A program made the position numbers and the translations under genes. Shown here in pieces: positions 12,319 through 50,221 of a DNA stretch of 64,000 nt (position 1 is the stretch's first letter; every line of letters starts with the position of its first letter). Under the pieces are notes generated by a model that searched no databases, was not told where the DNA came from, and saw nothing but the letters and a program-made list of their open reading frames with translations. Source of the stretch: a virus; the IMG/VR virus record IMGVR_UViG_3300014059_000004; one strand, given 5' to 3'.

Positions 12319-13116
12319 TCTCATTTCTTGACGTTCTTGGGTGCAATGGCGCTGAGGAACAACGTTGATGTTCTTCACTACACGTTCGAGCTATCAGAGA
12401 CTCAAGTTGGTATCAGGTACGATTCTAACTTGTGTGACATTGATTCGAATGCTGTCATTGACAGCAAGGATCGTATTCTTACTAAGTACGCAGAGCAAAA
12501 GCTGGGACGCTTGATCATCAAGTACTTTCCGACGAACACGGCTAGCATCTACACGCTTCGAAGTCACATCGAGCGCCTCGGAACGAAGGGTTTCAGGCCA
12601 GGATTGATCATCATCGACTATGCTGACATCATGAGATCAACTCGTCAGTTCGATTCTTTGAGACACGAGCTTAAGCTCGTTTACGAAGAACTAAGAGGAA
12701 TGGCTGGCGAGCTAGGAATCCCAGTGTGGACAGCGAGCCAGAGCAACAAAGAGGGAGCGACAAGCGAGATCATCGACATGGGAAACATGTCTGAAGCTTA
12801 CGGCAAGGCGATGATCGCTGACGTGATCGTCAGCATCTCTAGGCGCGCTCACGAGAAGTCAACGGGTCAAGGTCGATTGTACGTTGCAAAGAATCGTGCA
12901 GGGCGCGATGGTCTTGTTTACCCGTTGCACATTGACACCTCAAAGAGCAACTTTGAGATCTTGGGTGGACCGGGTTCTTTGGACGTCGCCATGAAGGAGA
13001 ACGAATCTGACATTAAGAAAGTTCTTCGTTCAAAGTGGAACGAGATGAGAAATGATCCAATCATCGGCGAAAATCTAAAAAGAGGAAGCGATTCTAGCGA
13101 TGACACGGGTTCTTGA
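11875..13116 (+). CDS. intein C-piece (148 aa, contains block B and terminal 'SHN') fused to helicase C-terminal RecA-like domain
   Basis: 'LTYGKESSLQCSPEHIVL' (block B-like)...'YYADGVLSHN|S', then helicase motifs 'LIIIDYADIM' and 'GIPVWTASQSNKEG'. Confidence 0.55.
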   Translation: MLSIEHCEVVEVVKIGDLFDDIGFDDKSTVDDSGDSFIPNEWSIEVRSLDTFYPIDGFRWTKPEQQVKLTYGKESSLQCSPEHIVLKYSSTETQWTKVNDLSPGDDIVTVNGICTIDSIDNLEEIDRLCDFQVSIAHSYYADGVLSHNSHFLTFLGAMALRNNVDVLHYTFELSETQVGIRYDSNLCDIDSNAVIDSKDRILTKYAEQKLGRLIIKYFPTNTASIYTLRSHIERLGTKGFRPGLIIIDYADIMRSTRQFDSLRHELKLVYEELRGMAGELGIPVWTASQSNKEGATSEIIDMGNMSEAYGKAMIADVIVSISRRAHEKSTGQGRLYVAKNRAGRDGLVYPLHIDTSKSNFEILGGPGSLDVAMKENESDIKKVLRSKWNEMRNDPIIGENLKRGSDSSDDTGS

Positions 13117-13176: not shown

Positions 13177-16100
13177 ATGAAGACATTTACGTACCAAGAA
13201 GCTCGTGATGCATCGGTTGACTATTTTTCTGGTGACACTCTAGCTGCTGATGTTTTTGTGTCCAAATATGCGTTGCGTGATTCAAATGATCAAGTTCTAG
13301 AGAGCACACCAGAAGCCATGCATCGTCGCCTGGCGAAGGAGTTCGCTAGGATAGAGTTGAACTACAAAAACTCTATTTCGTTCGAAGAAATCATGGAGTA
13401 TTTCAGCTCTTGGAAGATCGTGCCTCAAGGATCGCCGATGTCTGCGATTGGAAACACGAAGCAGATCCAGTCTCTGTCAAATTGCTTTGTCATTGAATCG
13501 CCGTACGATTCTTACGGCGGAATCATGAAGACCGACCAAGAGCAAGCTCAGATCATGAAGCGCCGCGGTGGTGTTGGATTCGACATCTCGTCAATCAGAC
13601 CAAAGGGATTGGTCACAACTAACGCTGCTCGTACGACCGATGGCATCGGTGTTTTCATGGAGCGCTTCAGCAACACTTGCAGGGAAGTCGCGCAAGGCGG
13701 TCGCCGTGGTGCTTTGATGATGACAATCTCTGTTCATCACCCAGAGATTCGCACGTTCATCAACATCAAGAAGAACGTTGAAAAAGTTACAGGCGCAAAC
13801 ATCTCGATCAGGTTGACTGATGAGTTCATGCGATCAGTGAAGGCTAGCGAGAAGTTCCAGCTAAGGTTCCCAGTTGAAGCAAATGCACAGCATACGATCA
13901 AAGAAGATGTCGACGCTGGTGAACTGTGGAATGAGATCATCGAGGCTGCTCATGCATCAGCTGAACCCGGTTTGCTATTTTGGGACAACGTTGTCAACAA
14001 CGGCCCAGCAGATGCATATCCCGGTTTCAAGTCTATCTCTACGAATCCTTGCTCTGAGATTGCTCTTTGCGCTTACGATTCGTGCAGATTGCTGCTTCTT
14101 AACGTTTCAAAGTTCGTAGAGAATCCTTTCACTGACAGAGCAAACTTCAACATCAAAGAGTTCAAGAGAGCTGCGTACGTTGCTCAACGCTTGATGGACG
14201 ACTTGGTTGATCTTGAGCTCGAAGCCGTCGATAGGATCATCGACAAGATCAACTCAGATCCAGAACCAGACGACGTAAAGAAGAACGAGCTAGATCTTTG
14301 GTTGAAGATCAGGGAAAAAGGTGCCTCGGGCCGTCGCACTGGTTTGGGAATCACTGGTCTTGGTGATGCCATTGCGTACGTTGGGTTGAAGTACGGATCA
14401 AGGGAATCTATCGATTTCACGGAAGATCTGTATAGAATGTTGGCTCTTTCTGCGTACCGTTCGTCAGTTGACATGGCGGCAGAACGTGGAGCATTTCCTG
14501 CGTTTTCTCACAACGTTGAAGCTGGTCATCCGTTCATTGAAAAGATCTTGGCACATGATGATGAGCTAAGGGCTGCATACAAGGTTCACGGTCGTCGTAA
14601 CATTGCCTTGACAACAACTGCACCCGCTGGATCAGTTTCAATCCTGACTCAAACAACGTCTGGTTGCGAACCTGTTTTTGCAGTTAGCTACAAGCGCAAG
14701 AAGAAGATCAATTCGAACGACGTCACGACCACAGCCAACTTTGTTGATGATCTTGGAGATCGTTGGCAAGAGTATACTGTCTACCATCATGGATTGAAGA
14801 TGTGGATGGATGTGACTGGAAAGACAGAGGCTGATATCGATGAATCGCCTTACAAGGGTTCTTCTAGTTCTGAGATCGATTGGCATGCTCGTGTTGACCT
14901 TCAAGCCGCAGCCCAAAGATGGATCTGCCATGCAATTTCCAGCACTGTCAACTTGCCATCAGATACGTCAGTTGAGACAGTTAAAAACATCTACATGCGA
15001 GGTTGGGAATCTGGGTGCAAGGGAATCACAGTGTATCGTGATGGTTGCAGAGCAGGCGTTCTATCGACAGAAGAGAAAAAGCCAAGTATTCAAGGAGCGT
15101 CAACCGATGGCTTGAAAGCCCTTCTTGACATTGTCACTAAGAACGTTAGCAGCATTCCATCAGCTGATTTGTACAAAAAATTGATTGAAGAAGAGCTCAC
15201 GAGGAGAGAGCCGACTCAACCAGAAAAGGTCGTCGAAGTTCATGCTCCGAAGCGTCCAAAAGAGCTAGAGTGTGACATCCATCGAGTCAACATCAAAGGC
15301 GAACAGTATCTTGTCTTCGTCGGATTGCTGAACGGCGTTCCATACGAAGTCTTTGCCGGTCTGTCAGAACACGTTGAAGTGCCAAAGAAAGTTAAGAAGG
15401 GAATCTTGATCAAGAATGGCAAGAAAGACGGCGTTGCAACGTACAATCTAAAGATTCCGGTGGGAGATGATGATTTTGTGACGTTCAAAGACGTTGTTAA
15501 CTTGTTTGACAACCCAACTTACGGTTCGTTCACCAGAACGTTGTCTCTAACGTTGAGGCATGGCATCCCGCTTCAGTACATCGTCGAGCAGCTTCGCAAA
15601 GACAAGCACAGCGACATGATGTCATTTTCAACTGTCATTGCTAGAGTCTTGAGCAAGGGTTACATCGTCGACGGAACGAAAGCAACGCAAGAAAAGCAGT
15701 GCTCAAGTTGCGGTTCTGATCAGCTAGCGTACATGGAAGGTTGCCAGACGTGCATGAACTGCGGAAGTAGCAAGTGTTCCTTATACTTAACTCCAAGACG
15801 AAAGGTTGATGACGTGAAAATCAAGATCACACCGCAGATGCTGAGGCAGCTTGTTAATGAAGAAGTTCTGAACGTGAAGCGCAAGGGAACTTTGAAGGAA
15901 GCCTTTGGACCATACGATGCTACTGGCGAGTATGATGACAAGGAATATGGCATGCAGCCGTGGAACTTTGAAGAGTCACACAGGGAATTGTTTGCGCAAG
16001 CGCTTGAACCGGTTATCAATGAATTCATGGAGTCTTTGGCTGAGATCGCTGAAAGAGCTTCACCACCAGATGCTAACATGTCTGCGCAAGATATTGGTAG

Positions 16101-16557
16101 CGATGAATACAACAGTTTCGGTGAAGACCTCAAAGAAGATCTTTTGAAGGTCATTGCTCAACACATGAAGAATGCGTCTGAAAATTTTGGTCTTTTAGAG
16201 GTTAACGTTATGAAGATAAAGCTAAGTGATCTGCGAAAGATCATCAGAGAAGTTGCAGTTTCACCTGCTGTCTTCAAGAGCAGCCAACCTGCAAAAGATC
16301 CGATGGAGAAGAAGAACATTGTCAAAGCGGTCTCTGATTTGAAGACAGCGTTCGAATCAGCGCTTCTAAGCAACCTTGTTCTTGCGAACCCAGAGAAGTA
16401 CGATGAATCCTCGAGAGAATTTGATGATCAGATGTACGAATCTCTTAAGACAACAGCGGCCTCAGCATCTGAACAAGTAGCATCAAAGATCAATGATGCA
16501 GTTCAGACTGCATGGGTTGCTGCACACAAAAACTCTAAGGTAAATCACTTAAAGTGA
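13177..16557 (+). CDS. nrdJ: ribonucleotide reductase, probably class II (NrdJ-like), with a roughly 250-aa non-RNR C-terminal extension
   Basis: Active-site 'NPCSEIAL'. C-terminal Zn-ribbon 'CSSCGSDQ...CQTCMNCGSSKC'. No nrdB partner. The extension carries two in-frame copies of the leader motif (see findings). Confidence 0.7.
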   Translation: MKTFTYQEARDASVDYFSGDTLAADVFVSKYALRDSNDQVLESTPEAMHRRLAKEFARIELNYKNSISFEEIMEYFSSWKIVPQGSPMSAIGNTKQIQSLSNCFVIESPYDSYGGIMKTDQEQAQIMKRRGGVGFDISSIRPKGLVTTNAARTTDGIGVFMERFSNTCREVAQGGRRGALMMTISVHHPEIRTFINIKKNVEKVTGANISIRLTDEFMRSVKASEKFQLRFPVEANAQHTIKEDVDAGELWNEIIEAAHASAEPGLLFWDNVVNNGPADAYPGFKSISTNPCSEIALCAYDSCRLLLLNVSKFVENPFTDRANFNIKEFKRAAYVAQRLMDDLVDLELEAVDRIIDKINSDPEPDDVKKNELDLWLKIREKGASGRRTGLGITGLGDAIAYVGLKYGSRESIDFTEDLYRMLALSAYRSSVDMAAERGAFPAFSHNVEAGHPFIEKILAHDDELRAAYKVHGRRNIALTTTAPAGSVSILTQTTSGCEPVFAVSYKRKKKINSNDVTTTANFVDDLGDRWQEYTVYHHGLKMWMDVTGKTEADIDESPYKGSSSSEIDWHARVDLQAAAQRWICHAISSTVNLPSDTSVETVKNIYMRGWESGCKGITVYRDGCRAGVLSTEEKKPSIQGASTDGLKALLDIVTKNVSSIPSADLYKKLIEEELTRREPTQPEKVVEVHAPKRPKELECDIHRVNIKGEQYLVFVGLLNGVPYEVFAGLSEHVEVPKKVKKGILIKNGKKDGVATYNLKIPVGDDDFVTFKDVVNLFDNPTYGSFTRTLSLTLRHGIPLQYIVEQLRKDKHSDMMSFSTVIARVLSKGYIVDGTKATQEKQCSSCGSDQLAYMEGCQTCMNCGSSKCSLYLTPRRKVDDVKIKITPQMLRQLVNEEVLNVKRKGTLKEAFGPYDATGEYDDKEYGMQPWNFEESHRELFAQALEPVINEFMESLAEIAERASPPDANMSAQDIGSDEYNSFGEDLKEDLLKVIAQHMKNASENFGLLEVNVMKIKLSDLRKIIREVAVSPAVFKSSQPAKDPMEKKNIVKAVSDLKTAFESALLSNLVLANPEKYDESSREFDDQMYESLKTTAASASEQVASKINDAVQTAWVAAHKNSKVNHLK

Positions 16558-19536: not shown

Positions 19537-20421
19537 ATGAAAAAGAACGTTGATCGACTGTCAGAGATGTGGGAACAGCAACATGATTTCATGAAGCTGC
19601 TGTGCGAACGTCGTGGCTTTCCTCAATTTCCCGTTGACATGAAGACTAAGGTCGGACAACGATTCTTGAAGGGAATAACGTACGATTGCATGGATGAGCT
19701 GTTTGAAGCCAACCAAGAGCTGAAGAACAGCAAGGGTCATCGTGCAACAGAGATTTCCGAGCTAGATCGTGAAGCGTACGTTGAAGAGCTTGTCGATGCA
19801 CTTCACTACTTCTTTGAGATCGTCATTGCATCAGGTGTGACGCTTGATGAGATGCACGAAGCGTACATGAAAAAAGGTGAAGTCAACCGAAAAAGGATCG
19901 AATCAGGGTACTTAGCCCCTGTACATTGCTTAAGGAGTGTTTTATCATGTCTTCACGAGATTGGTTCTCGTGGAAAGGAAAACATTACTATGCTAACTCG
20001 TTACTATGATACGATGAGAAATCCAACCTACAAGTTCGGTGACTTTAACGCAATCTTTGATGACATGCTTTCAATTGATCCATTTAAGTCAGAATCTTCT
20101 ATCTGGACGAAGAAGATCATGAACAATCTACCAGAACCAACGTTTTGGCATGAGAAGACTGAAGAAGGTTCTGCTCTTCACGTTGAACTACCGGGATACA
20201 AGAAAGAAGACGTATCGATAACGCTGCAAGACAAGACTCTTGTTGTCAAGGCTGAACGTAAGATGCCCGGCGGTGCGAAGACTGTCTCGTGGAGCTGGCG
20301 CATTCAGGATACGTACGAGTCCAATCCAACGTTTGCGAAGCTAGCTGATGGCATCCTTACGATAGGATTGAAGAGTAAACAACCACCACCTGAAGAAGCA
20401 CTCAGCATAAAGATCGAGTAA
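19537..20421 (+). CDS. MazG-like all-alpha NTP pyrophosphohydrolase fused to a small heat-shock protein (alpha-crystallin/Hsp20) domain
   Basis: N-terminal 'DCMDELFEA...EAYVEELVDALHYFFE' EExxE-type MazG motifs. C-terminal 'ALHVELPGYKKEDVSITLQDKTLVVKAERK...ILTIGLK' alpha-crystallin domain. Confidence 0.5.
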   Translation: MKKNVDRLSEMWEQQHDFMKLLCERRGFPQFPVDMKTKVGQRFLKGITYDCMDELFEANQELKNSKGHRATEISELDREAYVEELVDALHYFFEIVIASGVTLDEMHEAYMKKGEVNRKRIESGYLAPVHCLRSVLSCLHEIGSRGKENITMLTRYYDTMRNPTYKFGDFNAIFDDMLSIDPFKSESSIWTKKIMNNLPEPTFWHEKTEEGSALHVELPGYKKEDVSITLQDKTLVVKAERKMPGGAKTVSWSWRIQDTYESNPTFAKLADGILTIGLKSKQPPPEEALSIKIE

Positions 20422-20634: not shown

Positions 20635-21312
20635 ATGGGAAATAGATCTGATCAAGTTAAAAAGTTGTGGCAAACACCAGAATTTCGTGAAAAAATTATC
20701 GCAGCATCTAAAGACGGAAAAGCGTCGATTGAATCAAAACTTAAGCGTTCTAAAAGCTCAAGTAAATTGTGGTCTGATCCGGATTATTGTGAAAAACAAC
20801 GAATAAAACACAATGAACGAAAGAAAAGATTTGAACAAAAGCGAGTGACTATAACGTGTCTGACGTGTGGAAAAGAATGTAAGGTTAATGCAACAGTTGC
20901 AAAAACTAAGAAGTATTGTTCTCGTCGTTGCGTTATTAACAATCCGGCTTTTAACGTAAATCGAAATTTTTCCAGCAGCACGTGTGCTGCTTGTCAGGCA
21001 GAATTTAAACCAACAGGTGCTAAGCAGTTGTGCTGCACTACATGCGTTCCAAATAATTCAGCAAAATCACGTTGGAATTCGTATAAATTGACTCAACCAA
21101 TGTATGAAATGTTGCTAAGTCAACAGGGAAATTGTTGCGCACTGTGCGAAATTTCATTCAGTAATTTGAATTCAAAAGAAATTCATGTAGATCATGATCA
21201 TACTACAAATAAAATTCGTGGCATATTGTGTATGCGGTGCAATCGTAGCTTGGGTGTGGTAGAGTATATTCCACACTTTTTGGAAAAAGTAGCAACTTAT
21301 GTCAACATTTGA
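20635..21312 (+). CDS. free-standing HNH homing endonuclease
   Basis: 'HVDHDHTTNKIRGILCMRCNRSLG' HNH motif. Multiple CxxC Zn-ribbons. Confidence 0.6.
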   Translation: MGNRSDQVKKLWQTPEFREKIIAASKDGKASIESKLKRSKSSSKLWSDPDYCEKQRIKHNERKKRFEQKRVTITCLTCGKECKVNATVAKTKKYCSRRCVINNPAFNVNRNFSSSTCAACQAEFKPTGAKQLCCTTCVPNNSAKSRWNSYKLTQPMYEMLLSQQGNCCALCEISFSNLNSKEIHVDHDHTTNKIRGILCMRCNRSLGVVEYIPHFLEKVATYVNI

Positions 21313-22252
21313 TATCGATACACGAACAATCATTCGTGTAATTCATGGTTCATATGCATATGGACTCAACATTGCAGGTTCAGATATCGATTACAAGGCT
21401 GTTTGTGTACCTACAAAAGAGCGGTATTTTGGATTTTTGAACAACTTTGAACAGGCTGAGATGATGGCATCAAAAACAGGTGGTGTTGACTCTGTGACCT
21501 TTGCACTTGATAAGTTCGTGCGGCTCGCTGCTGACTGCAACCCAAACATCATAGAGATCCTGTTCGTTGATGACAGCGACGTCCTCGACATCAATTCTTG
21601 GGGCGAAGAGCTCCGTGAGTTCAAAGACAATTTCATATCCAGGAAGGCGAAGCACACTTTCTCGGGCTACGCTCATGCTCAGCTTCATCGCATCAAGAAT
21701 CACCGTGCATGGTTGCTGAACCCTCCCGCGAGCGCTCCAGCACGATCCGATTTTGGGCTGTCCGACGTGTCTCGTGTCTCGAAGAGTGAGCTCGGCGCTT
21801 ACGATTCTGCGATCGAGAGCGGTATTGCTCTCGACGTGCCGAAGAGCGTCTTGACTCTGTTCACAAGGGAAAAGCAGTACGCCGCAGCAAAGACGCACTA
21901 CGACCAGTACGTTCACTGGAAGAAGTCTCGCAATCCTGCTCGAGCAGAGCTCGAAGCAAAGATTGGATATGATAGTAAACATGGCGCGCATCTCATAAGG
22001 TTGATGCGCATGTGCAAGGAGATCCTTGAGACTGGCAAGGTTAACGTGAAGCGTCGATTCGATAGAGAGGAACTTCTGGAGATTCGTAACGGTCATCGTC
22101 CCTACGATAGCCTCATCGAGGAAGCTGAGAGGCTTGAGAGCGATTGTGAAGAGCTGTACAAGACTTCTACAGTGCGCAAAGAGCCCGATCGGGAGAAGAT
22201 CGATGCATGGCTCGTGGATTTCACTGAGCGTTACCTTGCAATTCATGGCTGA
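21299..22252 (+). CDS. Pol-beta-superfamily nucleotidyltransferase
   Basis: 'IHGSYAYGLNIAGSDIDY' matches hG[GS]x9-13Dh[DE]h. GC-richer than the flanking genes. Confidence 0.5.
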   Translation: MSTFDIDTRTIIRVIHGSYAYGLNIAGSDIDYKAVCVPTKERYFGFLNNFEQAEMMASKTGGVDSVTFALDKFVRLAADCNPNIIEILFVDDSDVLDINSWGEELREFKDNFISRKAKHTFSGYAHAQLHRIKNHRAWLLNPPASAPARSDFGLSDVSRVSKSELGAYDSAIESGIALDVPKSVLTLFTREKQYAAAKTHYDQYVHWKKSRNPARAELEAKIGYDSKHGAHLIRLMRMCKEILETGKVNVKRRFDREELLEIRNGHRPYDSLIEEAERLESDCEELYKTSTVRKEPDREKIDAWLVDFTERYLAIHG

Positions 22253-22319
22253 AAATTAGTTTGAACATGGGGCGCACAGAAGGTAAAGTAAGCACATCTA
22301 ACGGAGACGGAGAAAGAAA

Positions 22320-23195
22320 ATGGGAAAGCTCAATCAAGTCATTGCAGTTGAAAAGTCGGTGAAGAACAAGGCTCATGCTGCGATCACTGAGATCTACCAG
22401 AAGATGCAGAAGGCTCCCCTCCTGCAGGGAATTTCGCGGACGTACCGTCCGAAGGACGAGCTTGGTGAGGTTCTTCCGTCTGAGTCGTCCCGTGTTCAGC
22501 TGAATGCTACGGATTTCCTCAAGGAGCTCTCGTCAACCTTGACGGATCTCTTTGACGTCACTGCGACGAAGGATTTCGCGAACTGCGAGGCTCGCACTGA
22601 TCTTACGGTCGGTGATGTGGTTCTTGCGAAGAACGTGCCGGTTACGTACCTTCTCTTCCTCGAGAAGAAGCTGGTTGATCTGCACACGTTCGTCAGCAAG
22701 CTTCCCGTCCTTGACTCTTCGGAGGAGTGGACTCTGGATCCGAATGTGAACTGCTACGCTACGAAGCCGTCCGAGACGACTCGTACGAAGAAGGTCTTTG
22801 TCCCGCTTGTCCTTGCTCCGGCGACTGACAAGCACGCAGCCCAAGTCAAGGAGGGCTACGAGGATCAGGTCGTGGGTTTCTGGAAGACTGTGAAGTTCTC
22901 CGGAGCTCTTCCGGCTCAGCGAGTTGCTGAGCTTCTGGCTCGAGTCGAGAAGCTGCAGCGTGCAGTGAAGTTCGCTCGTGAGGAATGCAACGCTCGTGAA
23001 GCACCACCAGTCCAGGTTGGAGCCCGCGTTTTCGATTACCTGTTCGGTTTATCCGTAACAGGTTTGCGCAAGCTGAAAATCAGCCTTACGCTAACAGAGA
23101 GAGCTAGCAAAATTGTAGGTTCAAATCCTACCCCCTCCACTGACTCACAGTCAAGGAGTGATTCACCTCAAGTTATGCTTGGAACGAATCAATGA
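22320..23195 (+). CDS. hypothetical protein; the 3' end probably runs spuriously into the tRNA-like locus
   Basis: 291-aa ORF in the GC-rich island. Its last 25 codons overlap a tRNA T-arm/acceptor sequence. Confidence 0.35.
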   Translation: MGKLNQVIAVEKSVKNKAHAAITEIYQKMQKAPLLQGISRTYRPKDELGEVLPSESSRVQLNATDFLKELSSTLTDLFDVTATKDFANCEARTDLTVGDVVLAKNVPVTYLLFLEKKLVDLHTFVSKLPVLDSSEEWTLDPNVNCYATKPSETTRTKKVFVPLVLAPATDKHAAQVKEGYEDQVVGFWKTVKFSGALPAQRVAELLARVEKLQRAVKFAREECNAREAPPVQVGARVFDYLFGLSVTGLRKLKISLTLTERASKIVGSNPTPSTDSQSRSDSPQVMLGTNQ

Positions 23196-23243
23196 GGAGG
23201 GGTGGCGGAACTGGCAGACGCACTGGTGATCTCAACTCAACCT
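23115..23243 (+). tRNA. tRNA-like pieces in permuted order: T-arm plus 3' acceptor strand (23115-23139), then 56 nt downstream a perfectly complementary 5' acceptor strand with a tRNA-Leu-like D-arm (23196-23221); the anticodon arm does not fold cleanly
   Basis: 'gtaggttcaaatcctac-cccctcc-a', then 'ggagggg-tg-gcg-gaactggcaga-cgc'. Confidence 0.3.
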
Positions 23244-23326
23244 GAAGCTATCGCAACAGGTTCACTTAGTCGATAAAGGATGCAAGGATCAATCAATCGT
23301 TCACCGGCTGAATATTGCGAACTAGT

Positions 23327-23434
23327 GTGAGTTCAAATCTCACCCGCGCCTCCATGTTCCAACAGGAACAGCTGAAGCAGTAAATAAGGCGCGGTAGCTT
23401 AATGGCAGAGCGAGGTCGTCTAAGGACTGACTGG
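23327..23434 (+). tRNA. circularly permuted tRNA-like gene: 3' half (T-arm, acceptor, CCA; 23327-23354) lies 33 nt upstream of the 5' half (acceptor, D-arm, anticodon arm, variable loop; 23388-23434); joined at 48/49 it gives a 75-nt cloverleaf with anticodon CUA
   Basis: 'gtgag-ttcaaat-ctcac-ccgcgcc-t-cca' and 'ggcgcgg-ta-gctt-aatggca-gagc-g-aggtc-gtCTAag-gactg-actgg'. The acceptor stem is 7/7 complementary. Canonical U8, A14, G18G19, A21 and T54-Psi55-C56 are present. Confidence 0.4.
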
Positions 23435-23503
23435 TGAACTTAAACGTGTGATCCCTTTCTGTAAAAAATCGACGTCAACACGATAAGTTGACTAACTCTA
23501 GAT

Positions 23504-23535
23504 GGCCCGGGTAGGATACACCCGGGCCGTCGCTA
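23504..23535 (+). terminator. GC-rich hairpin (ggcccggg...cccgggcc) followed by 'taatttt'
   Basis: 8-bp perfect stem, 9-nt loop, T-rich tail. Just upstream of pnk. Confidence 0.4.
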
Positions 23536-23582
23536 ATTTTGGGACAGTGCACTTATTGCACTAACAGTGTTAGGATAAAAGA

Positions 23583-24563
23583 ATGAGAACTGTTTTCATC
23601 TTGCGTGGGTTGCCGGGGTGTGGAAAGTCGACTTTCGCAGCGAGCCTCGTTGCAAAGGAGCCAAAGCGCTGGGTTCGCATCAACCGTGATGACCTGAGGT
23701 CTATGTCAGTGGGACCAGCAAACAACCCGCACACCGGTGACAAGACTCGTGAAGAGTTTGTTCGTGAGGCGAAGAACAACCTGCTGTCTGCTGCGTTGAA
23801 GTCCGGTTACGATGTCATCTTGGACGACACGCACCTTGTGCCGCAGACCGTGAAGAAGCTGCACACGTTCGTGGAATCGATCGGCAACGTGAAGGTCATC
23901 GAGAAGTCTTTCAACGTTGACGTAGAAGAGGCAATCGCCCGTGATGCGAAGCGCTCAGGCTTTGCTCACGTGGGTGAGAAGGTCATCCGTGACATGGCTC
24001 GTGGAGCCGGATTGGAAGGTCGACGAAAGCTGCCTGATCGTGAAGTTTACTACCCACCGATCGGTTGCGGCGATCCCCTGACGATCAATCCAGATCTTCC
24101 AACAGCTATCATGGTCGACTTGGACGGTACGCTTGCTCTCATCGGCGATCGTTCGCCTTACGATGCGACCGACTGCGACGAAAAAGATTTGCCGAACTGG
24201 CCTGTCATCAAAACGGTCCTGGCGATGCATGCTCAAGGCGTGAAGATCATCTTCATGAGCGGCCGCGACGTGAAGTATCGTCCAGAAACTGTGCGGTTCA
24301 TCGAGAAGTACTGCCGTGAGATCGATCTGAAGCTCTGGGGCCCGGGCGGTCAGCCAATTCCCTATGAGCTGCACATGCGCGGTGAACTGGATCTGACTAA
24401 AGTTGATCAGCGAAAGGACAGCATCATCAAGGAAGAACTCTTTGATGCTCATGTTCGTGGGAAGTACAACGTTCTGTTCGTTCTTGACGATCGGAATCAG
24501 GTTTGTAGAAAATGGCGTGAATTGGGTCTAACCGTTTTTCAAGTAGCAGAAGGTGATTTTTAG
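23583..24563 (+). CDS. pnk: polynucleotide 5'-kinase/3'-phosphatase (T4 Pnk-like)
   Basis: N-terminal P-loop 'ILRGLPGCGKSTFA...INRDDLR'. C-terminal HAD phosphatase 'IMVDLDGTLA'. Ends '...LDDRNQVCRKWRELGLTVFQVAEGDF', nearly identical in pattern to the T4 Pnk C-terminus. Confidence 0.8.
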   Translation: MRTVFILRGLPGCGKSTFAASLVAKEPKRWVRINRDDLRSMSVGPANNPHTGDKTREEFVREAKNNLLSAALKSGYDVILDDTHLVPQTVKKLHTFVESIGNVKVIEKSFNVDVEEAIARDAKRSGFAHVGEKVIRDMARGAGLEGRRKLPDREVYYPPIGCGDPLTINPDLPTAIMVDLDGTLALIGDRSPYDATDCDEKDLPNWPVIKTVLAMHAQGVKIIFMSGRDVKYRPETVRFIEKYCREIDLKLWGPGGQPIPYELHMRGELDLTKVDQRKDSIIKEELFDAHVRGKYNVLFVLDDRNQVCRKWRELGLTVFQVAEGDF

Positions 24564-24599
24564 CATGTTGCTGTCTGACACGAAAAGGTTTCAGCAACG

Positions 24600-24857
24600 A
24601 TGAGTGCTGTGAAGCACATCATGTTCGGCCTCGTTGCGGTGGAAGACTTTCAAAAAGTCGCTGATCGATTGTACGAACTGGGTGCTGAGGGTGTAGATCA
24701 GCTCTACAGGGACACTAACTCTGTAGAGCTGGCATCTCGGTGCTACGTTCAAGTTAACGAAAGCTGCCATGATTCCATCTTGGATGAACTGAAGAGTTCA
24801 TCCAACGTTTGTGACATCATGATTCCAGCGCAGAGAGTGGTAAGAAAGAGAGCGTAA
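24600..24857 (+). CDS. hypothetical protein
   Basis: 85-aa ORF. Confidence 0.3.
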   Translation: MSAVKHIMFGLVAVEDFQKVADRLYELGAEGVDQLYRDTNSVELASRCYVQVNESCHDSILDELKSSSNVCDIMIPAQRVVRKRA

Positions 24858-24858
24858 C

Positions 24859-25644
24859 GTGAAAAAATACGATCGTACCCGACACATTCGAGGAAGTCGT
24901 TTCCAACACGGAGACGATGATCTTGAAGCTGTTCCGTGGGAAGATCTTGCTGGCAAGAATCTTGTCGTAGAAGAAAAAATTGATGGCGCAAATGTTGGTA
25001 TCAGCTTTGAAGATCAACGCTTGATGCTGCAATCACGAGGGCACTACCTTAGAGGTGGTCCTCGTGAGACTCAATTCAACCTTTTGAAGCAATGGGCAAC
25101 TTCAAAGACAGAAGATCTGTACTGCGTTCTCGAAGATCGTTACGTTATGTTCGGTGAGTGGATGTATGCATGTCACACCATGTTTTACGATGCATTGCCT
25201 CACTACTTCATGGAGTTTGACGTATACGATCGAGACACAAATCTCTACCTTGATACGCCGTCCAGAATGCAGCTTTTGGCACCGCTAAACTTGCAGTCTG
25301 TGTTGGTCTTGAAGAGCGGAAAGTTCTTGAAGTTGAAAGAGCTTCAGTCTCTCATCCTTAGATCAAACTTCGTGACTGATCAACGTAATGAAAATTACGT
25401 GAAGTCTGCCAGAGCAGCGTACCCAGAAAAGACAGATGAAGAGATCCTAGCGAAACTTGACAAGAACGACACGATGGAAGGCCTCTACGTGAAATGGGAA
25501 GAAGGAGGTTATGTCCGTGGACGTTACAAGTTTGTTCGTGAATCATTCATTTCGTCTATTACGGGTCAAGAAGAACATTGGCGTGACAGACCAATTGTTC
25601 CGAATTGCCTGACGCCGCTAGCGTTGGAAAAAATGTTCGAATAA
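24859..25644 (+). CDS. ATP-dependent RNA ligase-like nucleotidyltransferase
   Basis: Motif I 'EEKIDGANVGI' (KxDGxN). Motif IV 'EGLYVKWEEGG' (EGxVxK). Confidence 0.55.
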   Translation: MKKYDRTRHIRGSRFQHGDDDLEAVPWEDLAGKNLVVEEKIDGANVGISFEDQRLMLQSRGHYLRGGPRETQFNLLKQWATSKTEDLYCVLEDRYVMFGEWMYACHTMFYDALPHYFMEFDVYDRDTNLYLDTPSRMQLLAPLNLQSVLVLKSGKFLKLKELQSLILRSNFVTDQRNENYVKSARAAYPEKTDEEILAKLDKNDTMEGLYVKWEEGGYVRGRYKFVRESFISSITGQEEHWRDRPIVPNCLTPLALEKMFE

Positions 25645-26513
25645 CGGAGTATTATTCACGCATGCCAAAAATTGCATGGGCCACAGATATCCACCTTGAC
25701 ACTCTGGAGAAAACGCCAGAGAAGATCGTTCAGTTCGCAGAATCGTTGATCGTCGATCAACCAGATGCAATCGTTTTGACGGGTGATCTTTCAACGTACG
25801 CTGATCTAACGTACCACCTGTCTATCATCGAACGTGTTGTCCAGCGACCTGTTTACTTCGTCCTTGGAAATCATGATTTCTGGGGCGGCGGCGTCTCTGA
25901 CGTTCGTCTTGAGATGAAGAACCTCAGCAACATGTCGCAGTTCTTGCGATACTTGCCGAACACTCCGTACGTGACGTTGTCACCAACAACAGCTCTTGTT
26001 GGTCATGACTGTTGGTACGATGCGGGCTACGGGTCACCGATGACAAGCACGATGATCATGAATGACTGGATCAGGGTGAAAGATTTTGCCGTAGAGCACT
26101 GCGTCACGTACGGAGATACGTACGGATCATACAAGACTAACAAACCTAAGGTCATCGAGATCTCGAAGAAGCTAGCGTCTGAAGGTACAGCGCACATCAT
26201 CAATGGCATAAAAACAGCGGCAAAGTATCACAAAGTGATCATGATTGCCACGCACTTTCCACCATTCCAAGAGACTCATCTCTACAATGGTAAAGTTGGC
26301 GATGCAGCTGCACAGCCATGGTACACGAACAAGATGCTCGGTGACGTTCTTCGTCAAGCAGCATCACAGCTTCCAAAGGTCAGGTTTGAGGTCTTTGCTG
26401 GTCACACTCATGGGAAGTGTGACATGCAGATCAGCGACAACTTGTTTGTTCACGTTGGCGAAGCCGAGTACAAGCAACCACGCTTGCAGAATGTCATCAC
26501 GGTGCCTTTATGA
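25605..26513 (+). CDS. calcineurin-like metallophosphoesterase (alternative start 25662 'MPKIAW')
   Basis: 'DIHLD', 'LTGDLSTY' and 'VLGNHDFW' metallophosphatase motifs. Confidence 0.6.
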   Translation: MPDAASVGKNVRITEYYSRMPKIAWATDIHLDTLEKTPEKIVQFAESLIVDQPDAIVLTGDLSTYADLTYHLSIIERVVQRPVYFVLGNHDFWGGGVSDVRLEMKNLSNMSQFLRYLPNTPYVTLSPTTALVGHDCWYDAGYGSPMTSTMIMNDWIRVKDFAVEHCVTYGDTYGSYKTNKPKVIEISKKLASEGTAHIINGIKTAAKYHKVIMIATHFPPFQETHLYNGKVGDAAAQPWYTNKMLGDVLRQAASQLPKVRFEVFAGHTHGKCDMQISDNLFVHVGEAEYKQPRLQNVITVPL

Positions 26514-27337
26514 GCTCGCCATGGTACGTTGAAACATTCAACGACGGCGTTGCAATAAGAGCAGATTCAACGCAGCCGGCTTTGATGGATTACGTCAAAG
26601 AGCTAGCTGGACCAGTCCCATTGATCATCGCTGATCCACCGTACGGAAATGTCGTGAAAGACAAGTGGGATCGAGTTGATGATACAGCTGATGCTTTTGC
26701 AGGCTGGATGACTTCTTGGACGCATGCATGGAAAGATGCATGCCTCGCTCCAGGAGCAGCTTTCTACGTGTGGGGCGGAATTGGATCACCAGGCTTCAGG
26801 CCTTTCTTTGCTTACGTCATGAAAGCAGAGGTTGAGGGCAAATTTGAGCTAGCTAACTTGATAACTTGGAAGAAGCGTCGTGCGTATGGGTTGAAGTACA
26901 ACTACCTCTTCACACGAGAAGAGTGCGCGTACTTTGTTAACGGCACGTCGAAAGCACCTCGAAAGTTCAACATTCCGTTGCTCGATGAGAAGCGTGGTTA
27001 CAGCGGGTACAACAAGAAGTACCCAGCAAAGAGCGAGTTCTACCGCAGGTCAAACGTGTGGACTGACATCAATGAGATCATGCATGGAAAGTTTCATCCC
27101 ACAGAGAAGAAGCAACGATTGCACGAGATCATGATAGAAGTTCACACAGATCCGGGTGAGTGGGTCGTCGATCCGTTCGCTGGATCTGGTGTCACGGCTT
27201 TTGCAGCCAGAAAATTGGGAAGAAAATTTGTGATCATTGAATCAGACCCGGCGTACTTTGATTCCACGGTCCGCCGCCTCCGCGGCAACAACGTAAAGGA
27301 AGAAAACACAGATGAACGATCAACAGACGAACCTTGA
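26510..27337 (+). CDS. DNA N6-adenine/N4-cytosine methyltransferase (beta class)
   Basis: Catalytic 'IIADPPYG'. AdoMet motif 'VVDPFAGSGVTAFAA' at the C-terminus. Confidence 0.7.
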   Translation: MSSPWYVETFNDGVAIRADSTQPALMDYVKELAGPVPLIIADPPYGNVVKDKWDRVDDTADAFAGWMTSWTHAWKDACLAPGAAFYVWGGIGSPGFRPFFAYVMKAEVEGKFELANLITWKKRRAYGLKYNYLFTREECAYFVNGTSKAPRKFNIPLLDEKRGYSGYNKKYPAKSEFYRRSNVWTDINEIMHGKFHPTEKKQRLHEIMIEVHTDPGEWVVDPFAGSGVTAFAARKLGRKFVIIESDPAYFDSTVRRLRGNNVKEENTDERSTDEP

Positions 27338-49651: not shown

Positions 49652-50221
49652 ATGAGCAAGCAAGCTAATCCAACATTCGTGATGTACGTCGGACCCATGT
49701 GGTCATCAAAATCATCTCGATTGTTGATGGAGCTTGAGCGTTGCAAGTACCAGAAGAGAAACGCTCTAGTTTTCAAGCCTGCGATAGATGATCGCTACTC
49801 TACGTCTCAGATCGTGACGCACGGTGGTTGGCGTCACGATGCAGTCACTGTCAATAACGCAGAAGGTATTCTTGCGAAAGTTCTTGAAGAGCAGAACAAC
49901 GACATTAGCATCATCGCAGTAGATGAAGCTTTCATGATTAACGGCGTTGCTGATGCTTTGACGTTCTTGTACAGGAACGGCTACAACATCATAGTGTCAA
50001 CGCTTGACACTGCATTCAATGGTAAGCCGTTCGATGAAGTGACAAAGATGCTGCCTTGGGCAACGTCAATAGAGAAGTGCTCAGCAGTGTGCACGATCTG
50101 CTCGCAAGATGCTCATTTTACGTACAAGAAGAGCGAAGATGAAACGTTGCTTGAAGTTGGCGGGCACGAGCTATACGAGCCGCGTTGCTTGCGATGTCAT
50201 CCTTTCATAGTGCTAACATGA
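49652..50221 (+). CDS. tdk: thymidine kinase
   Basis: 'MYVGPMWSSKSS' P-loop. C-terminal Zn ribbon 'CAVCTICS...CLRCH'. Confidence 0.75.
   Translation: MSKQANPTFVMYVGPMWSSKSSRLLMELERCKYQKRNALVFKPAIDDRYSTSQIVTHGGWRHDAVTVNNAEGILAKVLEEQNNDISIIAVDEAFMINGVADALTFLYRNGYNIIVSTLDTAFNGKPFDEVTKMLPWATSIEKCSAVCTICSQDAHFTYKKSEDETLLEVGGHELYEPRCLRCHPFIVLT

What the first reader, a model, noticed from the sequence alone, without database searches (positions are those of the whole stretch)
21299..26513. GC-rich island: nucleotidyltransferase, unknown ORF, tRNA-like locus, Pnk, RNA ligase, metallophosphoesterase (tRNA repair/anti-anticodon-nuclease module)
Genes 21299-24563 are visibly GC-richer than the flanks. 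They produce long antisense shadow ORFs, which suggests a horizontally acquired block. Pnk (23583-24563) has both the T4-type kinase P-loop and the DxDGT phosphatase, and ends almost exactly like T4 Pnk. It is followed by a KxDG/EGxVxK ligase and a calcineurin-like phosphoesterase. In T4 the Pnk plus Rnl1 pair repairs host-cleaved tRNA anticodon loops. Here the module is physically linked to the tRNA-like locus and to a Pol-beta-family nucleotidyltransferase (21299-22252) that could be a CCA-adding or tailing enzyme. A second Rnl1-like ligase (59610-60953) is encoded elsewhere.
Basis: partly seen in the sequence, partly recalled or inferred. Interest (0 to 1): 0.6.

Follow-up and report, generated by a model that had tools for sequence, protein, structure and literature searches.

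The report
tRNA-mimic RNA in phage repair cassette
The flagged block is a real phage RNA-repair gene set, and its "unknown ORF plus tRNA-like locus" is a separate module (a DUF7873 protein gene followed by a roughly 480-base RNA with two tRNA-shaped domains) that recurs in thousands of bacteria and many phages and that I could not find described in Rfam 15 or the searchable literature.

Summary
The enzyme calls hold. 21299-22252 is an RlaP nucleotidyltransferase. 23583-24563 is a T4-type Pnkp. 24859-25644 is a PF09414 RNA ligase. About 25662-26513 is a metallophosphoesterase. The stretch 21299-24563 is the GC-richest part of the window (0.51 against 0.46). The same gene order occurs in related jumbo-phage contigs, so it is not a recent island.

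The "tRNA-like locus" holds no tRNA gene. It is one structured RNA (about 23066-23541) with two domains. Each has a T arm, a 7-bp acceptor-like stem closed by a loop, and a D arm, set on a long stem. This is the architecture of bacterial Y RNA (YrlA). Rfam YrlA scores it at 26.8 bits, below the cut-off of 69. Covariation is strong: 27 of 30 pairs show compensatory changes.

The RNA belongs to the upstream "unknown ORF", a DUF7873 protein with no known fold relative. DUF7873 genes in Streptomyces, Deinococcus, Myxococcota and many phages are followed by the same RNA. In phages the pair sits in tRNA arrays or, as here, among tRNA-repair genes. No Ro60 gene was found nearby.

Its function is inferred only: probably a tRNA-mimicking RNP. 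The "second Rnl1 ligase" (59610-60953) is not supported by any profile search.

The parts
21299..22252 (+). RlaP-family Pol-beta nucleotidyltransferase (RNA 3'-end repair NTase)
   Evidence: Pfam PF10127 69.9 bits, E 3.5e-19. PHROG 388 nucleotidyltransferase 7e-65. The motif HGSYAYG...SDIDY is visible in the translation. An RlaP gene sits upstream of DUF7873 in L002, L003, L092 and L093.
22320..23195 (+). DUF7873 protein gene. The homologous core is 22320-23048; the ORF tail 23049-23195 overlaps the RNA gene.
   Evidence: Pfam PF25283 343 bits, profile positions 1-242 of 244. 5254 homologs, most of 243-245 aa. 2577 clusters at 50% identity; all but one of the 150 listed are about 190-260 aa, the size of the domain itself. 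The AF2 model has pLDDT 89 and no PDB or BFVD fold relative.
23066..23262 (+). ncRNA domain 1. Conserved 5' GCGCAAGCUGAA motif and hairpin at 23066-23084. Inner stem 23103-23107 / 23223-23227. T arm 23115-23131. Acceptor-like stem 23132-23138 / 23196-23202, closed by a 57-nt loop. D arm 23205-23221 (3-bp stem, Leu-type). 3' hairpin 23239-23262.
   Evidence: Coordinates. The acceptor strands are exact 7-bp complements. On 21 diverse sequences, RNAalifold finds 11 of 16 T/acceptor/D pairs with compensatory changes. The inner stem covaries between loci. The outer closing helices are not resolved.
23289..23459 (+). ncRNA domain 2 (YrlA-like). Closing stem 23299-23307 / 23431-23439. Inner stem 23318-23323 / 23413-23418. 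T arm 23327-23343. Acceptor-like stem 23344-23350 / 23388-23394, with UCCA at 23351-23354 and a 37-nt loop. D arm 23397-23411. Conserved GACUGA at 23425-23430 and UUAAACGUG at 23440-23448.
   Evidence: Rfam YrlA RF02553 26.8 bits, E 0.002, full-length match. My model R1 gives 108.9 bits, E 8e-27, the only strong hit in the 64 kb. Covariation: 96.3% of cells paired against 71.3% in shuffles, 27 of 30 pairs with double changes.
23474..23541 (+). 3' end of the ncRNA: hairpin 23474-23492, then a conserved terminator-like hairpin 23501-23531 (loop GGAUAC) followed by a T run
   Evidence: The terminator scan finds a 12-bp stem with 9 G-C pairs and tail GCTAATTTTG. The stem covaries and the GGAYAC-like loop is conserved across phyla.
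23583..24563 (+). T4-type polynucleotide kinase / 3'-phosphatase (Pnkp)
   Evidence: AAA_33 3e-18 and HAD_PNKP 3e-46. PHROG 505 1e-82. PDB 4xrp Pnkp1 9e-41 and T4 Pnk 1ltq 1.6e-31, both full length. P-loop GLPGCGKS and DLDGT are in the translation.
24600..24857 (+). 85-aa ORF of unknown function between Pnkp and the ligase
   Evidence: No Pfam or PHROG hit. Small ORFs occupy the same position in L092 and L093.
24859..25644 (+). ATP-dependent RNA ligase, PF09414 family, nucleotidyltransferase domain only (261 aa)
   Evidence: Pfam RNA_ligase 115.8 bits, E 3e-33. PHROG 24030 and 548, RNA ligase. 5500 homologs; all 120 listed carry PF09414. Invariant K40-x-D42-G43, E207-G208...K212 and K224. There is no Rnl1 (PF09511) hit.
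25605..26513 (+). Calcineurin-like metallophosphoesterase (probable start ATG at 25662)
   Evidence: Metallophos 46.4 bits. PHROG 1649. NCBIfam TIGR03729 putative phosphoesterase 1e-14. Motifs DIHLD, GDLS, GNHD and GHTH are in the translation. Start position.

Best explanation
Two things lie side by side.

(1) A phage RNA healing-and-sealing cassette. Pnkp converts 2',3'-cyclic-phosphate/3'-phosphate and 5'-OH ends into 3'-OH and 5'-phosphate. The metallophosphoesterase probably helps clear 3' or cyclic phosphates. RlaP restores one or two lost 3' nucleotides. The PF09414 ligase seals the break. The likely purpose is to reverse host nuclease cuts in tRNA or other RNA.

(2) A self-contained module embedded in the cassette. 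It is the DUF7873 protein gene plus, transcribed in the same direction immediately downstream, a roughly 480-nt non-coding RNA ending in a terminator-like hairpin. The RNA has two domains. Each presents a tRNA elbow (T arm, D arm) and a 7-bp acceptor-like stem closed by a loop. Each sits on a long stem that takes the place of the anticodon arm. This is the architecture of bacterial YrlA Y RNAs.

I infer that DUF7873 and this RNA work together as an RNP, and that it works by tRNA mimicry. It would be recognised by enzymes that read the tRNA elbow and acceptor end. By analogy with M. smegmatis YrlA, it is probably cut by RNase P in the acceptor loop and ends in NCCA. It would then act as a platform, tether or decoy in tRNA surveillance and repair. 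That would explain why phages keep it in tRNA arrays or among tRNA-repair genes.

Shown: enzyme family assignments; the RNA structure and its covariation; the genomic coupling of the RNA to DUF7873; absence of a nearby Ro60 gene.
Inferred: protein-RNA binding; RNase P/CCA processing; any role in repair or counter-defence.
For: Enzymes. RlaP biochemistry: PMC12776372. The RlaP/ligase/kinase logic in jumbo phages: PMC7824862.

RNA structure:
- By-eye permuted halves with exact 7-bp complements at 23132-23138/23196-23202 and 23344-23350/23388-23394.
- Full-length sub-threshold YrlA hits in the window, L005, L006 and L009.
- RNAalifold: 43 of 47 pairs compensatory.
- The count of structure pairs: 96.3% paired against 71.3% shuffled (0 of 500 shuffles reach it) and 37-46% in slid controls.
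- MFE z-score -6.0.

Coupling:
- R1 hits of 78-141 bits lie downstream of DUF7873 on the same strand in 89 of 93 loci and in L094, L095, L096 and L099.
- Searches that start from the RNA: 2 of 2 viral hits, and 15 of 18 metagenome hits with upstream room, have DUF7873 243-667 nt upstream.
- Bacterial copies are solitary in unrelated contexts, each followed by a gap of about 470-780 nt.

Link to tRNA biology: in six annotated phage genomes the gene lies in or beside tRNA arrays. In this phage group it lies between RlaP and Pnkp.

Acceptor-end selection: module 1 has A73 in 53 of 55 loci, with CCA next in 22 of 55. Module 2 switches between G1:C72+U73 and U1:A72+G73.

Precedent: M. smegmatis YrlA, with a 7-bp acceptor stem, is cut by RNase P and gains CCA (PMC4201824).
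Against: - There is no direct evidence that DUF7873 binds the RNA. The protein is near neutral (pI 5.9-8.3). It has no recognisable RNA-binding domain and no fold relative.
- Three of 18 RNA-first hits lack DUF7873. About four DUF7873 loci lack a clear R1 hit: L012 and L028 have none, and L007 and L008 have only divergent modules.
- In actinophages and in bacteria the module occurs without Pnkp, ligase or RlaP. The link to repair is therefore contextual, not obligate.
- The closing helices of domain 1 are unresolved.
- A Ro60 gene elsewhere in the 314-kb phage genome, or in the host, is not excluded.
- Expression and processing are untested.
Confidence: 0.6

Rival explanations
1. The RNAs are ordinary Y RNAs that serve a Ro60/Rsr protein encoded elsewhere, in the phage beyond this window or in the host. 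DUF7873 would be an unrelated or accessory neighbour.
For: The architecture matches YrlA, and Rfam YrlA is the best sub-threshold hit. Two tandem Y RNAs processed from one precursor are known next to rsr in M. smegmatis (PMC4201824). Deinococcus and many actinobacteria are known to carry Rsr (my own knowledge). The window covers only 64 kb of a contig of about 314 kb.
Against: - No TROVE hit in any window ORF of 300 aa or more.
- None within 8-10 kb in five bacterial loci.
- None annotated in the complete 67-kb genome of Gordonia phage Fryberger, and none among the five of its unannotated or large ORFs that I scanned; that genome has both the gene and the RNA.
- The RNA tracks DUF7873 at a fixed distance and orientation across phyla.
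- Scores are far below the YrlA gathering score (27-37 against 69).
Confidence: 0.15
2. The tRNA-like elements are only cis-acting 3' processing or stabilising signals for the DUF7873 mRNA. RNase P would cut at a tRNA-like structure, as for MALAT1/mascRNA or tRNA punctuation. They would have no function in trans.
For: The RNA is always on the same strand and directly downstream. In the window the ORF even runs into the RNA. The 7-bp acceptor stems suit RNase P.
Against: About 400 nt are conserved across phyla. There are two distinct paralogous domains, conserved single-stranded motifs (GACUGA, UUAAACGUG, the CUGAA repeats) and a conserved terminal hairpin loop. This is far more than a cleavage signal needs. 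In many Streptomyces loci a GC-rich hairpin separates the stop codon from the RNA.
Confidence: 0.1
3. The locus encodes real tRNAs, either circularly permuted or split, including a possible suppressor. These would be matured by the neighbouring Pnkp and ligase.
For: The 3' halves precede the 5' halves with perfect acceptor complementarity. A CUA-containing 7-nt loop can be drawn after D arm 2. Aragorn called a "tRNA-Stop(tta)" at the equivalent place in Klebsiella phage Centimanus. Healing and sealing enzymes lie next door.
Against: - No anticodon arm is conserved. The position of the anticodon loop is taken by a long covarying stem with internal loops.
- The putative CUA hairpin in the window is not conserved in homologs; there the same nucleotides pair with the 5' strand.
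- ARAGORN finds nothing in the window.
- The same RNA is present in hundreds of bacteria that have no adjacent Pnkp or ligase.
- The Centimanus call is an artefact: it borrows the T arm of module 2.
Confidence: 0.03
4. The module is an anti-defence decoy. A tRNA look-alike with exposed acceptor/CCA and elbow would soak up or mislead host or competitor toxins that attack tRNA acceptor ends or elbows. DUF7873 would protect or present it.
For: In phages the module sits with tRNA arrays and tRNA-repair genes. Discriminator and first-pair identities are under selection. tRNA supply and repair are established phage counter-measures (PMC7824862).
Against: Most copies are chromosomal, solitary and vertically conserved in Streptomyces, Deinococcus and others. 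That argues for a housekeeping or stress role rather than a phage-specific weapon. No toxin partner is known. Nothing has been tested.
Confidence: 0.12

Closest known systems
Bacterial Ro60 (Rsr)-Y RNA RNPs, especially YrlA/YrlB (Rfam RF02553; Chen et al. 2014, PMC4201824)
   Same: The RNA is built from a long stem capped by a tRNA-like module: T arm, closed acceptor-like stem, D arm. Two such RNAs lie in tandem next to a protein gene. A 7-bp acceptor stem is followed by NCCA-like sequence, as in M. smegmatis YrlA, which is cut by RNase P and CCA-tailed. The RNA is found in bacteria and phages and sometimes near RNA-repair genes.
   Different: The partner gene is DUF7873 (243 aa, no TROVE domain, no known fold), not Ro60. 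The RNA scores 27-37 bits against a YrlA cut-off of 69. Both domains carry full tRNA-like modules and appear joined in one transcript of about 400-480 nt. That transcript has extra conserved motifs and a conserved terminal hairpin. The YrlA GNCGAAN0-1G motif is not clearly present.
Phage T4 Pnk + Rnl1 tRNA repair (counter to PrrC anticodon nuclease)
   Same: A bifunctional T4-type Pnkp aligns full-length to 1ltq. It is encoded next to an ATP-dependent RNA ligase in a large phage.
   Different: The ligase is PF09414 (Rnl2-type superfamily, 261 aa, no extra C-terminal domain), not Rnl1. The cassette also has RlaP and a metallophosphoesterase. No cognate host nuclease is known.
RlaP-containing RNA repair systems (Burroughs and Aravind 2016, as cited in PMC7824862; Carruthers et al. 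2025, PMC12776372)
   Same: An RlaP NTase is linked to an RNA ligase, a kinase/phosphatase and a phosphoesterase. The association is reported as common in jumbo phages.
   Different: Those descriptions, as far as I could read them, do not mention DUF7873 or an RNA component other than Ro60/TROVE with its tRNA-like partner.
tmRNA-SmpB and other tRNA mimics (mascRNA, viral TLS)
   Same: A partial tRNA (T arm, acceptor, D-loop features) is embedded in a larger RNA and works with a dedicated small protein or with tRNA-processing enzymes.
   Different: The acceptor stem here is closed by a loop in the primary transcript. There is no mRNA-like reading frame. There are two mimics per RNA. The Rfam tmRNA models do not match.

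Membership tests
T4-type polynucleotide kinase/phosphatase (Pnkp) | N-terminal P-loop kinase plus C-terminal HAD (DxDxT) 3'-phosphatase in one chain, homologous to T4 Pnk | tested here: met
   AAA_33 3e-18 and HAD_PNKP 3e-46. 1ltq 1.6e-31 over residues 1-326 against 1-301. GLPGCGKS and DLDGT motifs.
ATP-dependent RNA ligase, PF09414 (Rnl2-type superfamily) | Profile match above the Pfam cut-off, and covalent nucleotidyltransferase motifs I (KxDG), IV (EGxxxK) and V | tested here: met
   115.8 bits against a cut-off of 27. Invariant K40/D42/G43, E207/G208/K212 and K224 in 23 homologs.
T4 Rnl1 family (PF09511) for 24859-25644 or 59610-60953 | Profile match to RNA_lig_T4_1 | tested here: not met
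   No PF09511 hit for either protein at E 0.01 or 0.001. 59610-60953 also has no PHROG, NCBIfam or PDB hit. hhalign against the PF09414 family gives probability 19% over motif I only.
RlaP (PF10127) RNA-repair nucleotidyltransferase | Profile match above cut-off, the Pol-beta GS...DxD motif, and linkage to an RNA ligase | tested here: met
   69.9 bits against a cut-off of 23. HGS...DID motif. Ligase 2.6 kb downstream. The same linkage occurs in L092 and L093.
   Only RlaP is hit in Pfam. The PHROG hits say "nucleotidyltransferase".
Calcineurin-like metallophosphoesterase | Profile match and the metal-binding motifs DxH, GD, GNH[DE], GH | tested here: met
   Metallophos 46.4 bits against a cut-off of 21.5. 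DIHLD, GDLS, GNHD and GHTH motifs.
tRNA genes | Complete cloverleaf, including the anticodon arm, detectable by ARAGORN or the Rfam tRNA model | tested here: not met
   ARAGORN finds 0 genes. The Rfam tRNA model matches only a T arm, 14.8 bits against a cut-off of 29.
Circularly permuted / split tRNA genes | 3' half upstream of 5' half, together giving all tRNA elements including an anticodon loop | tested here: not met
   The permuted order and the acceptor complementarity are met. However, the anticodon loop is replaced by a long covarying stem.
Rfam YrlA (RF02553) | Score at or above the curated gathering threshold (69 bits) | tested here: not met
   26.8 bits in the window and 33-37 bits in L005, L006 and L009. 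All are full-length alignments with E 0.0002-0.003.
Ro60-Y RNA RNP | tRNA-like module (T arm, closed acceptor-like stem, D arm) closed by a stem formed from the RNA's flanks | tested here: met
   (domain 2). (domain 1, module and inner stem only).
Ro60-Y RNA RNP | A Ro60/TROVE gene within about 4 kb of the RNA (the criterion of Chen et al. 2014) | tested here: not met
   No TROVE among window ORFs of 300 aa or more. None in five bacterial neighbourhoods of 8-10 kb either side. None annotated in the complete Fryberger genome, nor among the five ORFs scanned there.
Ro60-Y RNA RNP | Ro60-binding helix or motif (GNCGAAN0-1G in YrlA) and physical binding to Ro60 | tested here: inconclusive
   The corresponding 5' strand reads AUCGA(A/C)CG in most loci and AUCAAUCG in the window. 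This is only a partial resemblance. Binding cannot be tested with these tools.
DUF7873 (PF25283) | Full-length profile match above cut-off | tested here: met
   343 bits against a cut-off of 27, profile positions 1-242 of 244.

The most novel reading that the evidence does not exclude
DUF7873 and its downstream bipartite tRNA-mimic RNA form a previously unrecognised RNP family that does not depend on Ro60. It is found in thousands of bacteria (most sampled Streptomyces, plus Deinococcus, Myxococcota, Chloroflexota and Armatimonadota) and in unrelated phages. RNase P would open both acceptor-like loops, giving NCCA-ended, possibly aminoacylatable, tRNA look-alikes with conserved identity-like positions: A73 with a Leu-type D arm in module 1, and U73 or U1:A72/G73 in module 2. 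The particle would act on tRNA-handling machinery. Phages would recruit it alongside tRNA arrays and healing-and-sealing enzymes.
Probability: 0.4. Interest if true: 0.85.

Novelty: new variant of a known kind. Interest (0 to 1): 0.72.

Why it matters
Bacterial Y RNAs have so far been defined by their Ro60 partner. Why they mimic tRNA is an open question. Here the same tRNA-mimic design, doubled, is tied to a different, very conserved protein of unknown fold. The protein is 61% identical between this phage and Deinococcus. The module occurs in model organisms such as Streptomyces and Deinococcus and in SEA-PHAGES actinophages, where it can be tested directly. It offers a second, independent system for asking what tRNA mimicry by non-coding RNPs is for. 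It also gives a function-linked handle on a large DUF family. It explains 400-800-nt unannotated gaps, and at least one spurious suppressor-tRNA call, in published phage genomes. Finally, it adds an RNA component to the phage tRNA-repair and tRNA-supply neighbourhoods that are read as counter-defence loci. The enzyme cassette alone is an ordinary new member of a known kind.

Tried and rejected
- tRNA genes. ARAGORN finds none in the window and Rfam gathering thresholds give nothing. Rejected.
- Permuted tRNA with a CUA anticodon. I drew this by eye. The hairpin is not conserved, and a covarying stem occupies the place of the anticodon loop. Rejected.
- Nucleotide similarity to known phages. 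Megablast of the 5.2-kb block against 50,697 phage records gave no match.
- DUF7873 has no PHROG or NCBIfam hit. I did not scan PADLOC.
- Domain 1 closing helices. RNAalifold on MAFFT and on anchor-trimmed alignments recovered only the T/acceptor/D elements and one ambiguous outer helix. Single-sequence folds suggest either a long interrupted rod (actinobacteria) or a 5' hairpin plus an outer helix (this phage group). Left unresolved.
- Second ligase at 59610-60953. Pfam, PHROG, NCBIfam, PDB phmmer, PDB profile search and hhalign against the PF09414 family all failed or were marginal.
- Recent horizontal island. Rejected because synteny is kept in relatives. An older acquisition of the GC-rich DUF7873 and Pnkp genes remains possible.
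- Literature. No paper mentions DUF7873 or PF25283, and none links Y-like RNAs to a protein other than Ro60. One review (PMC10870794) is not held.

Full report
**What is at the coordinates.** All genes in 19-29 kb are on the + strand.
- Pfam assigns 21299-22252 to RlaP (PF10127, 3.5e-19).
- 22320-23195 is DUF7873 (1.3e-102, profile positions 1-242 of 244).
- 23583-24563 has an AAA_33 kinase domain plus HAD_PNKP (3e-46).
- 24859-25644 is RNA_ligase PF09414 (3e-33).
- 25605-26513 is Metallophos.
- 26510-27337 is an N6_N4 DNA methylase.
- PHROGs agree: nucleotidyltransferase 7e-65, polynucleotide kinase 1e-82, RNA ligase, metallophosphoesterase.
- Pnkp aligns end to end with T4 Pnk (1ltq, 1.6e-31). 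It aligns even better with Pnkp1 of the Pnkp1/Rnl/Hen1 repair complex (4xrp, 9e-41).
- The ligase family has invariant KxDG, EGxxxK and K motifs. It has no Rnl1 profile hit.
- The phosphoesterase most likely starts at the ATG at 25662.

**GC content.** The window is 0.460 GC and 21299-24563 is 0.511. Only 0.8% of equal-length windows reach that value, and the maximum lies here. The DUF7873 gene is the GC-richest of 74 genes (0.55; GC3 0.645) and Pnkp ranks fifth. They are the usual by-product of GC3-rich coding sequence.

The block is not a recent insertion. Related phage contigs of 112 kb and 300 kb keep the order RNR, ThyX, Tmk, MT-A70, dUTPase_2/HSP20, RlaP, DUF7873, gap, Pnkp, RNA ligase, Metallophos, with the N6_N4 MTase next in the 300-kb contig. 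The window's own contig is 313,755 bp, so this is a jumbo phage. The low-GC patches elsewhere in the window coincide with ORFs that carry homing-endonuclease-type domains.

**The tRNA-like locus.** ARAGORN finds no tRNA in the 64 kb. Rfam finds nothing at gathering thresholds. Reading 22950-23650 shows tRNA pieces in permuted order, twice. Each time a T arm is followed by seven bases, a loop, the exact complement of those seven bases, and then U-R and a D arm. The coordinates are 23115-23131, 23132-23138, 23196-23202 and 23205-23221 for the first module. They are 23327-23343, 23344-23350, 23388-23394 and 23397-23411 for the second.

A permissive Rfam scan gives YrlA, the bacterial Y RNA-like family, as best hit for 23301-23440. 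The match is full-length at 26.8 bits, E 0.002, against a gathering score of 69. YrlA RNAs are long stems capped by exactly this kind of tRNA-like module (PMC4201824).

**The RNA belongs to the "unknown ORF".** DUF7873 has 5254 homologs at E<1e-5. These include chromosomal copies in Deinococcus and Myxococcales at 61-62% identity to this phage protein. There are 2577 clusters at 50% identity; all but one of the 150 listed are about 190-260 aa, the size of the domain itself.

A scan of one genome per GTDB species found at least 595 species. Most are Streptomyces. Others include Micromonospora, Nocardia, Actinomadura, Ktedonobacteria, Chloroflexia, Armatimonadetes, Blastocatellia, Polyangiales, Sorangium and Deinococcus. 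Seventy-five phage records carry the gene, from Vibrio, Gordonia, Rhizobium, Klebsiella, Serratia, Arthrobacter, Pseudanabaena, Ralstonia, Rhodococcus and Microcoleus phages.

In five bacterial neighbourhoods the gene is solitary, the flanking genes are unrelated, and a 470-780-nt gap follows it. A simple pattern script found at least one permuted tRNA-like module within 700 nt downstream in 84 of 92 loci, and two modules in 56 of them. Spacing between the modules is nearly constant.

**Structure and covariation.** I aligned 21 diverse sequences: this phage, two related viral contigs, two actinophages, two Deinococcus, and a range of Actinobacteria, Ktedonobacteria, Armatimonadetes and Sorangium. 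For domain 2, RNAalifold gives 47 pairs, 43 with compensatory changes. The helices are the T arm, the 7-bp acceptor-like stem, the D arm, a 9-bp closing stem, further outer helices and a terminal hairpin.

On the sequence-only MAFFT alignment of the core, 96.3% of cells are paired against 71.3% in shuffles (0 of 500 shuffles reach it). Slid controls give 37-46%. Twenty-seven of 30 pairs show double changes.

A covariance model built from that core (R1) scores 78-141 bits downstream of DUF7873, on the same strand, in 89 of 93 loci. It scores 108.9 bits at window 23289-23459, the only strong hit in the 64 kb. It also finds loci fetched later. In Klebsiella and Rhizobium jumbo phages, whose DUF7873 is only about 30% identical, it finds more weakly scoring divergent versions.

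For domain 1, the T, acceptor and D helices covary (11 of 16 pairs). So does a 4-6-bp inner stem directly beneath the module: GCUAG/CUGGU here, CGCGG/CCGCG, CCACC/GGUGG and ACCGU/ACGGU elsewhere. The outer helices of domain 1 involve repeated CUGAA/UCAG motifs, and I could not settle them.

The 3' end of domain 1 abuts the outer helix of domain 2. The whole region ends in a covarying hairpin with a conserved GGAYAC-type loop. In the window that hairpin is followed by a T run; it is the best terminator-like site in 21-27 kb. The 482-nt window sequence folds with a z-score of -6.0.

The simplest reading is one transcript of about 480 nt with two tRNA-like heads. In the window its 5' part overlaps the 49-codon tail of the DUF7873 ORF. 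That tail lies beyond the end of homology at 23048.

**Tests that start from the RNA.** A domain-2 sequence pattern found two viral contigs. Both have DUF7873 just upstream. A looser pattern found 20 metagenome contigs. Fifteen have DUF7873 ending 243-667 nt upstream, two have no room upstream, and three lack it. Those three also have no TROVE protein. The coupling is strong but not absolute.

**No Ro60 nearby.** No window ORF of 300 aa or more hits TROVE. None of the five bacterial neighbourhoods has one. The complete 67-kb genome of Gordonia phage Fryberger has the gene and an 81-bit R1 hit. It has no annotated Ro protein, and none of the five unannotated or large ORFs I scanned hits TROVE. 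A Ro60 gene elsewhere in this 314-kb phage, or in the hosts, cannot be excluded.

The protein is not basic (pI 5.9-8.3). It has many invariant acidic and basic residues. An enzymatic role is as plausible as a purely structural one.

**Context in phages.** In six annotated phage genomes the DUF7873 gene lies inside or beside a tRNA gene array. These are Gordonia Phendrix and Fryberger, Arthrobacter Mimi, Vibrio D505, Klebsiella Centimanus and Rhizobium RHph_Y65. In each, the RNA occupies an unannotated gap. In Centimanus the gap carries an Aragorn "tRNA-Stop(tta)" call that is built on the T arm of module 2.

In this phage group the module lies between RlaP and Pnkp. Across unrelated phages, then, the module travels with tRNA supply or tRNA repair genes. 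In bacteria it stands alone.

**Acceptor ends.** Across 55 distinct loci, the base after the acceptor 3' strand of module 1 is A in 53, and CCA follows in 22. In module 2 it is U when the first pair is G:C (36 of the 56 loci with both modules, before removing duplicates) and G when the first pair is U:A (18). CCA follows in 7 of the 55 distinct loci. The window's module 2 reads CCGCGCC-U-CCA.

The loop that closes the acceptor stem varies from 6 to 76 nt (57 and 37 nt here). These features suggest that the loop is dispensable and that the acceptor end is read by tRNA enzymes. M. smegmatis YrlA has a 7-bp acceptor stem, is cut by RNase P in vitro and in vivo, and gains CCA (PMC4201824). The same processing here is an inference.

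**Mechanism.** The enzyme cassette is a standard heal-and-seal set. Pnkp and probably the phosphoesterase prepare the ends. RlaP adds back one or two nucleotides (PMC12776372). The ligase seals the break. Iyer and colleagues describe this combination as common in jumbo phages (PMC7824862).

For the embedded module, I commit to a tRNA-mimicking RNP of DUF7873 with its bipartite RNA, processed by RNase P, that engages tRNA-handling machinery as a tether, platform or decoy. Its placement here suggests that it cooperates with repair. Confidence differs by step:
- The structured RNA and its genetic coupling to DUF7873: about 0.95.
- The cassette assignment: about 0.85.
- The RNP and tRNA-mimicry function: about 0.45.
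- A specific role in repair or counter-defence: lower.

**The second ligase.** ORF 59610-60953 belongs to a family of at least 839 proteins, and none of the 120 listed has a Pfam domain. Invariant EKxDGxN and EGVVF...YKFTG motifs look like nucleotidyltransferase motifs I, IV and V. Profile searches against the PDB find nothing. hhalign against the PF09414 family gives 19% probability over motif I alone. The claim is unproven, not excluded.

**Novelty.** The repair cassette is a new member of a known kind. The DUF7873-RNA module is a new variant of the Y-RNA/tRNA-mimic kind. It has a different protein partner, a doubled tRNA-like design and wide distribution. It has no Rfam family, and I found no mention of it in the searchable literature. 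That literature excludes most subscription journals.

Noticed in passing
window 23049-23195: The DUF7873 ORF has lost the usual stop after ...YLFG. It reads 49 more codons through the 5' half of RNA domain 1 and stops (TGA 23193-23195) just before the acceptor 5' strand. A 100%-identical 291-aa protein is in the public collection (P0001). A few other listed homologs also run past the usual 243-245 aa (for example P0002 at 259 aa, P0032 at 265 aa).
   Followed up: partly
L097 6013-6096 (Klebsiella phage vB_KpM_Centimanus, OZ240615.1 121400-121483): The annotated "tRNA-Stop(tta)" from Aragorn lies in the gap after the DUF7873 gene. It uses the T arm and acceptor 3' strand of tRNA-like module 2. 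It looks like a mis-call, not a suppressor tRNA.
   Followed up: partly
L005 3072-3600 (Gordonia phage Phendrix, MN096369.1, between tRNA-Asn and tRNA-Arg): Rfam tmRNA hit of 89 bits (E 3e-33) in an unannotated gap of the tRNA array. This appears to be a phage-encoded tmRNA that the record does not annotate.
   Followed up: no
L017 4758-4906 and 5323-5463 (Ktedonobacterales MAG): Two full-length copies of RNA domain 2 (89 and 94 bits) lie about 1.0 and 1.6 kb downstream of DUF7873, each preceded by a module-1-like hit. This looks like a tandem duplication of the whole RNA, displaced from the gene.
   Followed up: no
L092 10758-11468: In a related 112-kb phage contig, a gene with a faint NUMOD3 (homing-endonuclease-type) Pfam hit sits between DUF7873 and its RNA (R1 hit at 11705-11865). 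The gene and the RNA can therefore be separated by about 1 kb.
   Followed up: no
window 7771-8706, 10716-11897, 50185-51504; also 11875-13116, 13177-16557, 37851-41183: Low-GC patches (0.36) coincide with ORFs carrying homing-endonuclease-type domains (TnsA-like N, NUMOD3/zinc finger). One such domain is fused upstream of a dCMP deaminase domain. The DnaB-like helicase and the Pol III alpha ORFs show sub-threshold intein-splicing matches. The RNR large subunit is 1126 aa, and the RNR ORF in related contig L092 carries weak Intein_splicing and HNH_3 hits.
   Followed up: no
window 59610-60953: A conserved phage protein family (at least 839 members, no Pfam domain). It has invariant EKxDGxN and EGVVF..YKFTG motifs that resemble covalent nucleotidyltransferase motifs I, IV and V. 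It may be a divergent ligase or capping-like enzyme.
   Followed up: partly
window 19537-20421: A single ORF combines a MazG/dUTPase_2-like N-terminal part with an HSP20 (alpha-crystallin) C-terminal domain. In relatives L092 and L093 these are two separate genes.
   Followed up: no
L102, L106, L119 (metagenome contigs): Exact matches to the domain-2 pattern with at least 1.4 kb of upstream sequence but no DUF7873 and no TROVE. These could be orphan copies of the RNA, or copies whose partner gene lies elsewhere.
   Followed up: partly
RNA module 2 across loci: The first acceptor pair and the "discriminator" change together: G1:C72 with U73, or U1:A72 with G73. This echoes tRNA identity sets (Cys/Gly-like against Gln-like). 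Module 1 keeps A73 and a 3-bp Leu-type D stem.
   Followed up: partly
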